From an uncultured virus (IMG/VR IMGVR_UViG_3300037400_001971) (lineage: Duplodnaviria > Heunggongvirae > Uroviricota > Caudoviricetes), in the IMG/VR virus record IMGVR_UViG_3300037400_001971: a stretch of DNA of 64,000 nt; one strand, given 5' to 3'. Position 1 is the stretch's first letter. Every line of letters begins with the position of its first letter. Below the pieces are notes generated by a model. That model saw nothing but the letters and a program-made list of their open reading frames with translations. It did no database searches and was not told the DNA's origin. A program made the translations under genes and the position numbers. Positions 40,923-42,674 of this stretch are shown here, piece after piece.

Positions 40923-41688
40923 TTAGAGATTATTGTCAGCATACTTTTGAAATTTCAGCCATTCGCCGAAATTGTGGGCGTAGGAAGCCCGAGGGTCGAT
41001 GATTTTTCTTATTTTTGCCCCCCCCCACTACGGAGTTATGCTTGATAATGGTACCTCGGCTGTATTCCATGAGCTGCCCGAAACGGCCGCTCATAGTCCA
41101 CGTGGTGCTGTCAACGCTATCAAAGCGAAAGCGTTTCATGCCGTCCAAGTTCGTGTAGCCGAGGCCATGTATCTTGCATCCATGCTTATGAGCGGTGGCA
41201 ATGAACCACGGAAACAACTGCTCATAGCGGGTACGCTCTATCTCCTTGGTCACAATGCCGCCAAGCGAGATATAAGGATAGTCACGGCACATAGCCAGGA
41301 AATAATCTTTTCCTCGCCCCTTGTGCCATACAGGTATTGCCTGAACGCCACACCTCGCCTCAATGCGGGAGCGTAGCATTTCGACATATCGGATATCTTT
41401 CAGGGCATCTATATCCAGCTCGAAATACCGGGTGATGCCATATTCCTTGATGAAGTCGGCGTATTGGTCGGCATAACTGAGCCAATCGACGGAGCCGTGC
41501 TTCTGAGCGGCATTCATAAAGGTAAAGGCCCCGCTATCCAATAAGAAGCCTTTGAACCGCCGTATGAGCGGTTTCTGCCAGTCAGCAAGCGAGTAGAACG
41601 ATTCCAGGACATAGATATCCTCAGGCTGGAACCGCCCGCTCTCAAACTCGCGTTTGACATTACCCAATGCCGCCAAATATACCCTCAT
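40923..41688 (-). pseudogene. dpdA: DpdA/TGT-like DNA transglycosylase paralogue 1, frameshifted at a G9 tract
   Basis: LLDSGAFTF, FELDID, IPVWH, IHGLG and FDSVDST. As written it stops at 40936; removing one G from 41018-41026 gives ...HNFGEWLKFQKYADNNL* (stop 40923), matching the paralogue. Confidence 0.75.
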
Positions 41689-42674
41689 AGATGAATACGC
41701 GCATATTTTTGGAAGCGCACCCATTCGTTGAAGTTATAGACTGCCGCTTCTTTCGACTTCAGCTTTGTTCCCGATGGGACGCTTATCTGTTCCATCAGGC
41801 CATTATTCATATTGAAGCGATAGACAAAGCCGCCACGGTTGCCATAGAGCCATGCCGTAGAATCGACGCTATCAAAGCGGTATTTCTGCAATCCTTTGAG
41901 ATTGGTATATCCAAGGCCGTGAATCTTCACGCCGCGCTTGTGGGCCTGCTGGATGAACCAAGGGAAGAGCATTTCATATTTCTTGATGGGAATCTCTTTG
42001 GTGACGATGCCACCGATGGCCACATATGGATAGTTCTCACACATCTTGATGAAATACTCCTTACCTCGTGTCCGATGCCAAACTGGGATAGGTTTCTTGC
42101 CGGTCATCTGCTCCAGCTTGAAGCGAAGCCTCTCCACCTCTTTCAGGCCGACCACTGAATCAATATCGAGTTCAAAGAACCGCTCCACGTTCCATTTGTT
42201 GATGAACTGAGCATAGTCCTCTACATACTTATCGAAGTCCACGGTTCCTGAGGTGTTCGACATGAACGTGAAAGCACCACTATCCAGCAGGAACGAGCCG
42301 AAATCCTTAATCAGGTTCGGAAACGTATTATTATTCTGTAGATAGAAGAAACTTTCGAGAATGGAAAGCCCTTCCCATTCCTTCGCTTGCTCACATTCCT
42401 TTGCCAACTCTCCTTTATGAGAGAGGAAATTCTGCATGGCCTGAATCAAGCAATGCTGCCTTGAATAACTTCCTGCCAAGTATATATTCATAAAATCCTT
42501 CCAAAATGCGTTCAGGTTGCCCGTCACGCCACCTGCCAAATAGATCTGCACGGCTATCTGATATTTGTCTTTATAATGAATCTCTCCTGTCAAATGGGGG
42601 GGGGTAGAACTATATACTTTCCCCAATATCTCTTTGAATCCGCAAGGGAAATTCCCCGCAAGGTGTACCTCCAT
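41685..42674 (-). CDS. dpdA: DpdA/TGT-like DNA transglycosylase paralogue 2
   Basis: Same motifs; ends NFNEWVRFQKYARIHL; in-frame C9 tract at 42596-42604; adjacent to the preQ0 pathway genes. Confidence 0.78.
   Translation of the reverse strand: MEVHLAGNFPCGFKEILGKVYSSTPPHLTGEIHYKDKYQIAVQIYLAGGVTGNLNAFWKDFMNIYLAGSYSRQHCLIQAMQNFLSHKGELAKECEQAKEWEGLSILESFFYLQNNNTFPNLIKDFGSFLLDSGAFTFMSNTSGTVDFDKYVEDYAQFINKWNVERFFELDIDSVVGLKEVERLRFKLEQMTGKKPIPVWHRTRGKEYFIKMCENYPYVAIGGIVTKEIPIKKYEMLFPWFIQQAHKRGVKIHGLGYTNLKGLQKYRFDSVDSTAWLYGNRGGFVYRFNMNNGLMEQISVPSGTKLKSKEAAVYNFNEWVRFQKYARIHL

What the first reader, a model, noticed from the sequence alone, without database searches (positions are those of the whole stretch)
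40923..42674. Two tandem DpdA-like transglycosylases, each with a 9-nt slippage tract: candidate phase-variable 7-deazaguanine DNA modification
Seen: two clear paralogues sit beside queC/queD/queE/folE. Paralogue 1 has G9 (41018-41026) and ends in the unrelated tail GKNKKNHRPSG...; with G8 it reads AKIRKIIDPRASYAHNFGEWLKFQKYADNNL*, matching paralogue 2's AAVYNFNEWVRFQKYARIHL*. Paralogue 2 has an in-frame C9 (42596-42604); C8 or C10 hits a stop within 2-6 codons. I noticed no other G/C run of 9 in the window. Known: FolE-QueD-QueE-QueC make preQ0, and phage DpdA enzymes insert 7-deazaguanines into DNA, protecting it from restriction. Inference: slipped-strand switching toggles two enzymes, perhaps with different target motifs, giving progeny different modification patterns as a hedge against both classical and modification-dependent restriction. 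I know of no description of this.
Basis: partly seen in the sequence, partly recalled or inferred. Interest (0 to 1): 0.9.

Follow-up and report, generated by a model that had tools for sequence, protein, structure and literature searches.

The report
Switchable DNA-modification genes in a rumen phage
A virus living inside rumen Prevotella bacteria carries two neighbouring genes for an enzyme that swaps guanine in DNA for a protective look-alike base, and each gene holds a slippery run of nine identical letters whose length differs between otherwise near-identical copies of the virus, so the genes appear to be flipped on and off by chance.

Summary
Observation confirmed. The window holds a Prevotella-type temperate phage. 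It carries folE-queE-queD-queC and two tandem DpdA-like transglycosylase genes, which have a TGT fold and about 25% identity to DpdA of cultured 7-deazaguanine phages.

The sense-strand G9 (41018-41026) and C9 (42596-42604) are real. Across four laid runs, the only indels on the three long (1.6-5 kb), about 99% identical contigs that span the dpdA genes lie in the two tracts. Related DNA and protein clusters show G8/G9 and C7/C8/C9/C10 on the same backbones, in all four combinations.

G9 frameshifts the short paralogue and removes a conserved C-terminal helix. The out-of-frame tail still evolves under purifying selection in the G8 frame (9 synonymous, 1 non-synonymous change between two G9 alleles). 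That points to reversible switching, not decay.

The C tract lies in a translated leader ahead of alternative starts. It may therefore change isoform or amount rather than give a clean on/off.

The pattern is general. In 20 of 43 lineages of homologous gut and rumen (pro)phage loci, runs of 7 or more sit in dpdA, about 31 times the density of flanking DNA. DNA methyltransferase genes nearby carry such runs too.

No paper links DpdA to this. The closest precedent is the T2 agt contingency locus (2025 preprint). This scan had earlier noted single frame-broken DpdA-like genes on other DNA.

Activity, raw-read heterogeneity and any benefit are untested.

The parts
40923..41688 (-). Short DpdA paralogue (paralogue 1). 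The intact form is 254 aa. In this window the G9 tract shifts the frame after residue 223, giving a 250-aa product that ends at 40936.
   Evidence: PHROG 887, E 1.3e-44. The 254-aa in-frame natural alleles P0270 and P0274 have the same backbone. AF2 model of P0122 has pLDDT 92.8. 36 of the top 37 Foldseek PDB hits are tRNA-guanine transglycosylases. Its ATG overlaps the stop of paralogue 2 (ATGA at 41685-41688).
41018..41026 (-). Tract 1: G9 in gene sense (G8 is in frame). It encodes the Gly-Gly loop just before the C-terminal helix.
   Evidence: G8 is found in the X2 contig; G9 in X1, X3 and X4. G8 in L022. G9 in L067 and L068. Of 12 full-length cluster members read, 6 are in frame and 6 are shifted.
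40923..41017 (-). Tail that is out of frame in this window but conserved. It encodes ...KIRKIIDPRASYAHNFGEWLKFQKYADNNL, the C-terminal helix.
   Evidence: Window against L068 (both G9) shows 9 synonymous and 1 non-synonymous codon change in the G8 frame, against 2 and 7 in the G9 frame. The helix spans residues 232-253 at pLDDT 96-98 in the model.
41685..42674 (-). Long DpdA paralogue (paralogue 2, P0001, 329 aa with C9). The TGT-like core is preceded by two extra copies of the first-strand motif (MEVHLAG.., VQIYLAGG.., MNIYLAGS..).
   Evidence: PHROG 887, E 1.6e-55. tblastn E about 1e-8 to 1e-12 to annotated DpdA-type genes of cultured phages. Alignment. In the AF2 model, residues 5-58 have pLDDT below 50.
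42596..42604 (-). Tract 2: C9 in gene sense (C9 is in frame with the upstream ATG).
   Evidence: C10 in the X3 and X4 contigs; C9 in X1 and X2. C7 in L022. C8 in L067, L068 and L073. Protein forms of 329, 325, 302, 319 and 308 aa correspond to different tract lengths.
42605..42674 (-). Leader module before tract 2 (MEVHLAGNFPCGFKEILGKVYSS). Its ATG lies 1 nt after the stop of the ParB-like gene.
   Evidence: Window against L068: 18 differences, 8 synonymous and 5 non-synonymous in the ATG frame, against 1/13 and 0/14 in the other frames. Sequence.
42549..42551 (-). GTG at codon 42, the position where most homologues begin (M-x-I-Y/F-L-A-G-G). It is a candidate internal start used when tract 2 is out of frame.
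   Evidence: Alignment. The codon is ATG in L068 and L022 and GTG here. 288-aa gene calls start here. That this start is used is inference.
42489..42491 (-). ATG at codon 62. It aligns with the start of paralogue 1 and of the shortest homologues.
   Evidence: L006 and L014-L021 start here. That this start is used is inference.
42676..43266 (-). ParB-like protein directly upstream, a recurrent partner of this dpdA type.
   Evidence: PHROGs 17622, 620 and 940. The same pairing occurs in Fusobacterium phage phiFN37.
37660..40910 (-). preQ0 pathway genes: queC 40257-40910, unknown ORF 39524-40189, queD 39125-39463, queE 38511-39104, folE 37660-38556.
   Evidence: Pfam QueC 1.1e-57, PTPS 2.6e-29, Radical_SAM 3.9e-15, GTP_cyclohydroI 1e-49. 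The unknown ORF belongs to a phage-only hypothetical family.

Best explanation
The two runs are hypermutable simple-sequence repeats (contingency loci) inside two tandem phage dpdA genes. Slippage during replication adds or removes one base, and the change is inherited and reversible.

In the short paralogue, G8 gives the full 254-aa enzyme. G9, the state in this window, replaces the last 31 residues, a conserved C-terminal helix, with unrelated sequence. That most likely inactivates the enzyme.

In the long paralogue, the C tract decides whether a translated leader is fused in frame to the enzyme (C9) or stops 2-8 codons later (C7, C8, C10). The leader appears to be translationally coupled to the upstream ParB-like gene (inferred from the 1-nt spacing). 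When it stops early, only internal starts at codons 42 or 62 remain, so amount or isoform changes rather than necessarily all-or-none.

Because the two tracts vary independently, a phage population holds all four combinations. Virions therefore probably differ in how much 7-deazaguanine (most likely preQ0) is inserted into their DNA, and perhaps where.

The likely benefit (inference) is bet-hedging between hosts whose restriction enzymes are blocked by the modification and hosts, or lysogens, in which the modification is costly or is itself targeted.

Shown here: the tracts, their natural length variation, the frame consequences, selection on the out-of-frame tail, and the family-wide enrichment.

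Inferred: the slippage rate, loss of activity, use of internal starts, and the benefit.
For: 1. The tracts are real.
- An independent assembly of the probable source run reproduces G9 and C9 at depth 61 and 55.7 with 0 differences.

2. The tracts vary in nature.
- The long contigs of three other studies, about 99% identical (12-27 substitutions each), each carry exactly one indel over the dpdA genes, and that indel is in a tract. G8 occurs in X2; C10 in X3 and X4. The other four indel rows of that table lie in queC and come from one short 156-nt X3 contig.
- Further DNA alleles: C7 + G8 (L022); C8 + G9 (L067, L068); C8 (L073).
- Protein clusters at 90% identity. For paralogue 1, 6 of 12 full-length members read are in frame and 6 are shifted, with both states on each of two backbones. 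For paralogue 2, the 15 listed of 20 members are 2 of 329 aa (C9), 3 of 325 aa (C10 type), 7 of 302 aa (C8 type), 1 of 288 aa and 2 shorter entries (250 and 95 aa).
- All four state combinations occur on single contigs.

3. The change looks reversible, not like decay.
- Two G9 alleles 10% apart keep the tail under purifying selection in the G8 frame (9 synonymous, 1 non-synonymous) and not in the G9 frame (2 and 7).

4. The tail matters.
- It is a helix at pLDDT 96-98. It carries invariant W243 and K245 and the nearly invariant N239, F240, E242 and Y249 across 40 sequences.

5. The pattern is general.
- Runs of 7 or more: 42 in 77 kb of dpdA regions against 14 in 532 kb of flanks.
- After clustering 65 loci into 43 lineages, 20 of 43 have a run. 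Using representatives only, 32 runs lie in 51 kb against 7 in 351 kb, a ratio of 31.
- Close pairs differ at the tracts: L019/L023 in 2 of 3 indels, and L053/L054 in their only indel.
- Hosts named in the records span Prevotella, Muribaculaceae, Alistipes, Collinsella, Megasphaera, Peptoniphilus and Succinivibrio.
- In Peptoniphilus catoniae the dpdA tract is 1 of 4 runs of G9 or longer in the whole genome.

6. The same phages carry tracts in DNA methyltransferase genes.

7. The window otherwise avoids G/C runs: 0 runs of 6-7 against about 15 expected.

8. Cultured-phage dpdA genes lack runs longer than 5 (6 of 6 loci), so the tract is not a coding necessity.
Against: - No raw reads were available; all 24 listed runs are kept as contigs. 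Mixed lengths within one population, the direct mark of phase variation, were therefore not seen.
- Assemblies can miscall homopolymers. Most alleles come from metagenome assemblies of modest depth (about 10x for X2-X4).
- The long frame of paralogue 2 is out of frame in most alleles. Of the 15 listed cluster-1 members, 2 are C9 against 10 of C8 or C10 type. Its post-tract linker evolves fast with a weak coding signal (3 synonymous, 7 non-synonymous). AF2 gives no confident structure for residues 5-58. The tract could therefore be drifting in a dispensable leader.
- 23 of 43 lineages have no tract.
- 40 of 42 family tracts are poly-G on the sense strand. Pure DNA slippage does not predict that bias.
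- Enzyme activity, the modified base and any fitness effect are untested.
- Membership in DpdA rests on fold, PHROG and weak tblastn. Pfam gives no hit and NCBIfam DpdA scores 15 bits against a cut-off of 200.
Confidence: 0.7

Rival explanations
1. Programmed recoding. The tract is a site of transcriptional slippage or ribosomal frameshifting, so a G9 allele yields both the truncated and the full-length enzyme in a set ratio. DNA length changes only retune that ratio.
For: The G9 (shifted) allele is common and persists across 10% divergence while the tail stays under selection in the other frame. The strong bias for poly-G on the sense (RNA) strand, 40 of 42, hints at an RNA-level effect.
Against: In-frame G8 alleles are equally common on the same backbone (6 of 12). 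A fixed recoding site would not need that. Tract positions differ between lineages. No stimulatory element was looked for or seen. From my own knowledge, slippage by RNA polymerase is best documented for A/T runs.
Confidence: 0.1
2. Tolerated mutational hotspots without adaptive value. Gly-rich loops happen to be encoded by GGG codons, the runs slip, and the frequent broken alleles are mildly deleterious noise in accessory genes.
For: Accessory anti-restriction genes can be lost without killing a phage. 23 of 43 lineages do without tracts. The leader of paralogue 2 may be dispensable.
Against: Enrichment is 31-fold in dpdA over the flanks, while the window avoids G/C runs of 6-7 everywhere else. 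Tracts recur at non-homologous positions and as 2-3 tandem copies. They are conserved at the same site across 10% divergence although synonymous interruption would be easy; interrupted versions do exist in L009, L012 and L053. There is purifying selection on the shifted tail. Methyltransferase genes of the same phages carry such tracts too.
Confidence: 0.13
3. Assembly or sequencing artefact. The true sequence is uniformly G8 and C9, and the other lengths are homopolymer errors.
For: Homopolymers are error-prone. Most evidence comes from short-read metagenome assemblies. No raw reads could be laid.
Against: G9 is reproduced by a second assembler at depth 61. It appears in at least 6 distinct protein records, one seen on 13 contigs, and in loci from different projects. 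No other indel occurs in 2.6 kb on the same contigs. Tracts are also present in isolate genomes (Alistipes putredinis DSM 17216, Collinsella sp. An7, Peptoniphilus catoniae).
Confidence: 0.03

Closest known systems
T2 agt contingency locus (Gomez, Barrick and Waters, bioRxiv 10.1101/2025.10.21.683753; abstract and section 3 read)
   Same: A phage DNA-hypermodification gene carries a homopolymer in its coding region. Plus or minus 1 slippage switches the modification off and back on. This trades escape from a modification-dependent nuclease (TgvAB) against sensitivity to another (McrA/BC).
   Different: There: an A run in a lytic coliphage, a glucosyltransferase acting on 5-hmC, and reversion rates measured experimentally. 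Here: G/C runs of 7-11 (up to 15), a temperate phage of rumen Prevotella, a base-exchange enzyme for 7-deazaguanine, two tandem paralogues each with its own tract, modular leaders with several tracts, and a family-wide pattern across host phyla. Nothing here is tested at the bench.
Phase-variable DNA methyltransferases of bacteria (phasevarions; Type I/III mod genes with homopolymeric or short repeats). Review passage seen in PMC12707154; the rest is recalled.
   Same: Slipped-strand mispairing in a repeat inside a DNA-modification gene gives stochastic, heritable on/off states.
   Different: Those are bacterial methyltransferases, often with a gene-regulatory role. Here the switched gene is a phage transglycosylase that replaces the base itself, and the modified DNA is the virion genome.
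Campylobacter phage polyG tracts (Sorensen et al., Cell Rep 2021; seen only as a citation, content recalled)
   Same: Hypermutable poly-G tracts in phage genes create phenotypic diversity in progeny.
   Different: Those tracts sit in receptor-binding protein genes and change host recognition, not DNA modification.
Phage DpdA / preQ0 modules (DpdA1 type: 9g, CAjan, Vid5, Seurat, Rosebush). Passages of PMC10516641 read. Hutinet et al. 2019 seen as a citation.
   Same: FolE-QueD-QueE-QueC plus a TGT-fold transglycosylase placed just upstream of the packaging genes. tblastn gives about 25% identity, with E about 3e-8 to Seurat, 3e-11 to Vid5 and 9e-12 to MiCath.
   Different: Two tandem paralogues 46% identical to each other. 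No Pfam TGT hit. N-terminal repeats of the first-strand motif. Homopolymer tracts are present here, and absent from 6 of 6 cultured or GenBank phage dpdA loci checked.

Membership tests
Phage DpdA (DNA guanine transglycosylase of the TGT superfamily) | TGT-like TIM-barrel fold | tested here: met
   AF2 model of the in-frame homologue P0122 has pLDDT 92.8. The top 36 Foldseek PDB hits are bacterial or archaeal tRNA-guanine transglycosylases, with E about 1.5e-5 and TM about 0.6.
Phage DpdA (DNA guanine transglycosylase of the TGT superfamily) | Sequence homology to characterised or curated DpdA | tested here: inconclusive
   PHROG 887 'queuine tRNA-ribosyltransferase' at E 1e-44 and 1e-55. tblastn E about 1e-8 to 1e-12 over 65-84% of the query to dpdA genes of Vid5, Seurat, JG054 and RHEph phages. 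Against that, there is no Pfam hit, NCBIfam DpdA scores 15.3 bits against a cut-off of 200, and no PDB sequence hit at E up to 1.
Phage DpdA (DNA guanine transglycosylase of the TGT superfamily) | Catalytic aspartates of TGT (DSGG-type and FDCV-type motifs) | not tested
   Invariant LLDSGAF and FDSVDS motifs are present in both paralogues. Their equivalence to the TGT catalytic Asp residues is recalled, not aligned here.
Phage DpdA (DNA guanine transglycosylase of the TGT superfamily) | Linked to 7-deazaguanine (preQ0) synthesis genes | tested here: met
   queC, queD, queE and folE lie directly downstream on the same strand.
Phage DpdA (DNA guanine transglycosylase of the TGT superfamily) | Inserts a 7-deazaguanine into DNA | not testable with these tools
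   Needs LC-MS/MS of virion DNA or heterologous expression.
Contingency locus / SSR-mediated phase variation | Simple repeat inside a coding region or its start region, with frame consequences | tested here: met
Contingency locus / SSR-mediated phase variation | Repeat length differs among otherwise near-identical genomes, with indels concentrated at the repeat | tested here: met
Contingency locus / SSR-mediated phase variation | Mixed lengths within one clonal population; elevated, reversible mutation rate | not testable with these tools
   Only contigs were available, no raw reads. Reversibility is inferred from selection on the shifted tail and from both states occurring on each of two backbones.
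Contingency locus / SSR-mediated phase variation | Switch changes the phenotype (here: DNA modification) | not testable with these tools
   Loss of a conserved C-terminal helix is predicted.

The most novel reading that the evidence does not exclude
Temperate phages of gut and rumen bacteria from several phyla run a dedicated, heritable random switch on their DNA hypermodification. dpdA is fronted by one to four tandem 'start codon + first-strand motif + poly-G' modules lying in different frames, and sometimes carries a second tract before the C-terminal helix. Methyltransferase genes of the same phages carry tracts too. A single prophage therefore releases virions with a spectrum of epigenetic coats. 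This would be a phage counterpart of bacterial phasevarions, built on a base-exchange enzyme. It might also have feedback, because the enzyme's own substrate (G) makes up the switch.
Probability: 0.45. Interest if true: 0.88.

Novelty: new variant of a known kind. Interest (0 to 1): 0.78.

Why it matters
7-deazaguanine DNA modification is treated as a fixed anti-restriction trait of the phages that encode it. If it is stochastically switched, and if this holds for about half of the lineages of a very large gut and rumen (pro)phage dpdA family, three things follow.

- Modification state becomes a population-level variable. It would affect host range, restriction escape, sensitivity to modification-dependent defences, and sequencing-based detection of modified bases.
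- It extends the newly proposed idea of phage contingency loci from laboratory coliphages to uncultured temperate phages of anaerobes.
- It offers a simple, testable marker for which accessory genes are under fluctuating selection: long G runs in an otherwise run-depleted genome.

Tried and rejected
- No whole genome is held for the window.
- No close relative in GenBank phages by blastn; only short queC matches.
- IMG/VR scan with paralogue 1: 5 pattern matches, 0 confirmed.
- IMG/VR scan with the flanks of tract 1 and a variable gap: 0 matches.
- PDB sequence profile search: 0 hits at E up to 1.
- Pfam: no hit for either paralogue.
- PADLOC: nothing for either paralogue.
- Atlas look-ups gave no function for ORF 39524-40189 or for the C8-tract gene.
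- The AF2 model of the long paralogue was too uncertain in residues 5-58 to say what the leader does.
- A Markov simulation of run counts timed out and was replaced by an analytic estimate.
- One regex script failed and was corrected.
All 24 listed runs are kept as contigs, so within-sample heterogeneity stays open.
- Pseudogene reading rejected, because.
- 'G9 is the true functional frame' rejected, because the G9-frame tail is not conserved (2 synonymous, 7 non-synonymous) and homologues end with the G8-frame tail.
- The DpdA3 subfamily was considered because hosts are Bacteroidota. It was not tested directly. The best named tblastn hits are DpdA1-type phages, so no subfamily is assigned.
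Full report
**Observation.** The genes lie on the minus strand. In gene sense, the short DpdA paralogue carries G9 at 41018-41026 and the long one carries C9 at 42596-42604.
- The short paralogue starts at 41688, with its ATG overlapping the stop of the long one.
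- In the G9 frame it ends at 40936 with an unrelated tail.
- The frame reached by removing one G runs to 40923 and reads ...AKIRKIIDPRASYAHNFGEWLKFQKYADNNL*.
- The long paralogue is open over 329 codons with C9.
- C8 stops its ATG frame two codons after the run, and C10 stops it at the eighth codon (read).
- The only other G/C run of 6 or more in the 64 kb is a C8 at 16160-16167.
- A first-order model expects 0.198 runs of 9 or more in the window, and 1.5e-5 for two within this gene pair.
- The model expects about 15 runs of length 6-7, and none exists. The genome avoids G/C runs except at three places.

**What the genes are.** The window is a temperate siphovirus-like phage. Annotated genes:

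| Gene | Coordinates |
|---|---|
| Integrase | 44337-45560 |
| CI-like repressor | 45781-46404 |
| Large terminase with an intein | 35253-36848 |
| Portal | 33774-35237 |
| Tape measure | 2-4858 |

- Upstream of the packaging genes, on one strand, lie in order: ParB-like gene, long dpdA, short dpdA, queC, an unknown ORF, queD, queE, folE.
- Both paralogues match PHROG 887.
- The long paralogue (P0001) finds the annotated DpdA-type genes of Vid5, Seurat, JG054, MiCath and Rhizobium phages at about 25% identity, E about 1e-8 to 1e-12.
- Pfam and PDB sequence searches find nothing. NCBIfam DpdA is far below its cut-off.
- A confident AF2 model of the natural in-frame homologue P0122 (pLDDT 92.8) hits tRNA-guanine transglycosylases in 36 of the top 37 PDB matches.
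- I read them as divergent phage DpdA enzymes; no subfamily is assigned.
- Record titles and names point to Prevotella as host: L022 and two cluster members are labelled Prevotella sp., on contigs up to 230 kb.
- The runs that hold the sequence are bovine, sheep and other rumen or gut metagenomes.

**The tracts are real and vary in nature (contigs of four runs).** No raw reads were on offer, only contigs.
- Laid on 40250-43270, the probable source run reproduces the window exactly (0 differences, depth 61 and 55.7).
- The long contigs of three other studies are about 99% identical (12, 26 and 27 substitutions).
- Each of these carries exactly one indel over the dpdA genes, and that indel is in a tract: one G fewer at tract 1 in X2, and one C more at tract 2 in X3 and X4.
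- The other four indel rows of that table lie in queC. They come from one short 156-nt X3 contig with 9 other differences, which I take to be another organism's queC.

**The tracts vary in nature (related DNA and protein clusters).**
- L022 (Prevotella MAG, 88-92% protein identity) has C7 and G8.
- L067 (100% over 219 residues) and L068 (91%) have C8 and G9. L073 has C8.
- For the short paralogue, 12 full-length members of its 90% cluster were read. 6 end with the conserved tail and 6 with the shifted tail. Both states occur on the window-type backbone (P0270, P0274 against P0264, P0267, P0269, P0276) and on the L068-type backbone (P0122, P0271 against P0273, P0275).
- For the long paralogue, the 15 listed of 20 members of its cluster are as follows:

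| Length | Count | Reading |
|---|---|---|
| 329 aa | 2 | C9 |
| 325 aa | 3 | N-terminus read from the +1 frame, hence C10 |
| 302 aa | 7 | start just after the tract; the two I could tie to DNA are C8 |
| 288 aa | 1 | starts at codon 42 |
| 250 aa and 95 aa | 2 | shorter entries, not fetched |

- Matching contig lengths shows all four combinations of states on single contigs.

**Not decay.**
- The window and L068 both carry G9, yet their 95-nt tails differ at 10 positions. 9 of the 10 changed codons are synonymous in the G8 frame.
- In the G9 frame, 2 are synonymous and 7 are not.
- The tail encodes helix 232-253 of the model (pLDDT 96-98). It includes the invariant W243 and K245 and the nearly invariant N239, F240, E242 and Y249.
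- The lineage must therefore spend much of its time with the tail in frame, or read it through. This fits a reversible switch.

**The long paralogue is different.**
- Its N-terminus repeats the first-strand motif three times (MEVHLAG, VQIYLAG, MNIYLAG).
- Most homologues start at the second or third copy.
- Codon 42 is GTG here and ATG in L068 and L022. Codon 62 is ATG.
- The 70 nt before the tract evolve as coding sequence in the ATG frame (8 synonymous, 5 non-synonymous, against 1/13 and 0/14 in the other frames).
- The 44 nt after the tract are 43% diverged with little coding signal.
- AF2 does not fold residues 5-58 with confidence.
- The ATG sits one base after the ParB-like stop.
- I infer a translated leader whose fusion to the enzyme depends on the tract. 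Out-of-frame states stop 17-38 nt before the internal start. The effect is probably on amount or isoform, and is untested.

**A family-wide pattern.** Homologous loci came from IMG/VR (21) and from species-representative genomes (45).
- Runs of 7 or more: 42 lie within dpdA (from 250 nt upstream to 120 nt downstream; 77 kb in all) and 14 in the other 532 kb.
- One of the 66 loci (L066, 26% identity) gave no tblastn hit and was left out. The other 65 cluster at 85% nucleotide identity into 43 lineages, and 20 of 43 have such a run.
- Using one representative per lineage, 32 runs lie in 51 kb against 7 in 351 kb, a ratio of 31.
- Many loci have two or three tracts 75-100 nt apart. Each follows its own start codon and MK(I/L)(Y/H)LAG motif, often in different frames.
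- A whole 82-83-nt module is present in L001 and L009 and absent from the 96-98% identical L003 and L004 (and the 92-95% identical L026). The deletion lies between direct repeats.
- Close pairs differ at the tracts: L019/L023 in 2 of 3 indels, and L053/L054 in their only indel. In L053 the run is interrupted and in frame.
- Tracts also occur near the 3' end or inside short paralogues at other sites: L033 is shifted, and L037 and L007 are in frame. L050 has a G7 in queC.
- Several of the 'outside' runs sit in DNA-modification genes:
  - a 266-aa methyltransferase in the Alistipes loci;
  - a helicase-methyltransferase fusion, split by G9 in L004 and intact with G8 in L010;
  - a PAPS-reductase-like gene in L041.
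- Whole-genome counts show such runs are rare in the hosts. The dpdA run is one of 4 runs of G9 or longer in Peptoniphilus catoniae. In the Collinsella isolate 1 of 16 such runs is the dpdA tract. In the Muribaculaceae isolate 2 of 14 lie in this prophage locus (one in the dpdA leader, one about 3.2 kb upstream) (my count of distinct runs).
- Alistipes putredinis has many more: 80 overlapping hits.
- Six GenBank phage dpdA loci have no G/C run longer than 5.

**Rivals.**
- An artefact is very unlikely, for the reasons above.
- Neutral hotspots are hard to square with the enrichment, the recurrence at different sites, the run avoidance elsewhere in the window, and the selection on the tail.
- Programmed recoding cannot be excluded. 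It is the one reading that would explain the striking bias for poly-G on the sense strand (40 of 42). I leave that bias unexplained.

**Known and new.**
- Full-text searches for DpdA with phase variation (2 papers, neither on this), 7-deazaguanine with phage and homopolymeric (4, none relevant) and deazaguanine with contingency (8, none relevant by title and abstract) found no description.
- Supplements of these papers were not opened.
- The concept has a direct precedent. A 2025 preprint shows that an A run in T2 agt switches DNA glucosylation and trades TgvAB against McrA/BC restriction. It proposes contingency loci as widespread in phages.
- Campylobacter phage polyG tracts in receptor-binding genes are cited.
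- This scan had earlier noted single frame-broken DpdA-like genes on other DNA, but not a tract pattern.
- I therefore class the finding as a new variant of a known kind: the first case I can find for 7-deazaguanine modification, with an unusual modular architecture and a broad distribution.

**Limits.**
- All evidence is comparative and in silico.
- Within-population heterogeneity, switching rates, use of internal starts, enzyme activity, the base inserted, target motifs of the two paralogues, and any fitness benefit remain to be measured.

Noticed in passing
window 16160-16167 (ORF 16132-16956, + strand): The third long G/C run of the window is a C8 in codons 10-12 (PAPP) of a 274-aa ORF of unknown function. 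The ORF sits next to a nucleoside 2-deoxyribosyltransferase-like gene. No family, no Atlas hit, and a poor model. It may be another switchable gene.
   Followed up: partly
whole window: G/C runs of exactly 6 or 7 are absent (0 seen, about 15 expected from dinucleotide composition), while A and T runs of 6-7 are present. The genome seems purged of slippery G/C runs except at three sites.
   Followed up: partly
L024:933-941, L029:815-823, L010:1760-1767, L004:2180-2188, L041:504-512, L023:1756-1769: Related prophages carry G8-G14 runs 3-4 kb upstream of dpdA. The runs lie in a 266-aa DNA methyltransferase, in a helicase-methyltransferase fusion (split in L004, intact in L010), in a PAPS-reductase-like gene, and near the end of a small ORF.
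   Followed up: partly
L001/L009 against L003/L004/L026; L035, L042, L051, L008, L023, L054: The 5' ends of dpdA are built from 1-4 tandem modules (start codon, MK-I/L-Y/H-LAG, poly-G), often in different frames. A whole 82-83-nt module is gained or lost between direct repeats.
   Followed up: partly
L001-L066 dpdA regions: 40 of 42 tracts are poly-G on the sense strand. The window's long paralogue (poly-C) belongs to the small opposite class (2 of those 42, L022 and L030). Unexplained.
   Followed up: no
window 35253-36848 (-): The large terminase gene carries Hint/intein domain hits in residues about 368-500. This looks like an intein inside the terminase.
   Followed up: no
window 30706-33516 (-) and 18805-19584 (+): The 936-aa head-morphogenesis protein has an ADP-ribosyltransferase-like C-terminal part (PHROGs 16625, 3895). 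Elsewhere the phage encodes an ADP-ribosylglycohydrolase.
   Followed up: no
window 37660-38556 (-): FolE is 298 aa, with the GTP cyclohydrolase I domain only in residues 104-292. About 100 N-terminal residues have no match.
   Followed up: no
G001 (genome of L024, Alistipes putredinis DSM 17216): This host genome has 80 overlapping hits to G9 in 2.6 Mb. That is far more than the other four genomes searched (6-28) and suggests many host contingency loci.
   Followed up: no
L050:5704-5710: A G7 run sits in the SGGxDS PP-loop motif at the start of queC, directly after dpdA, in a Lachnospiraceae MAG locus.
   Followed up: no
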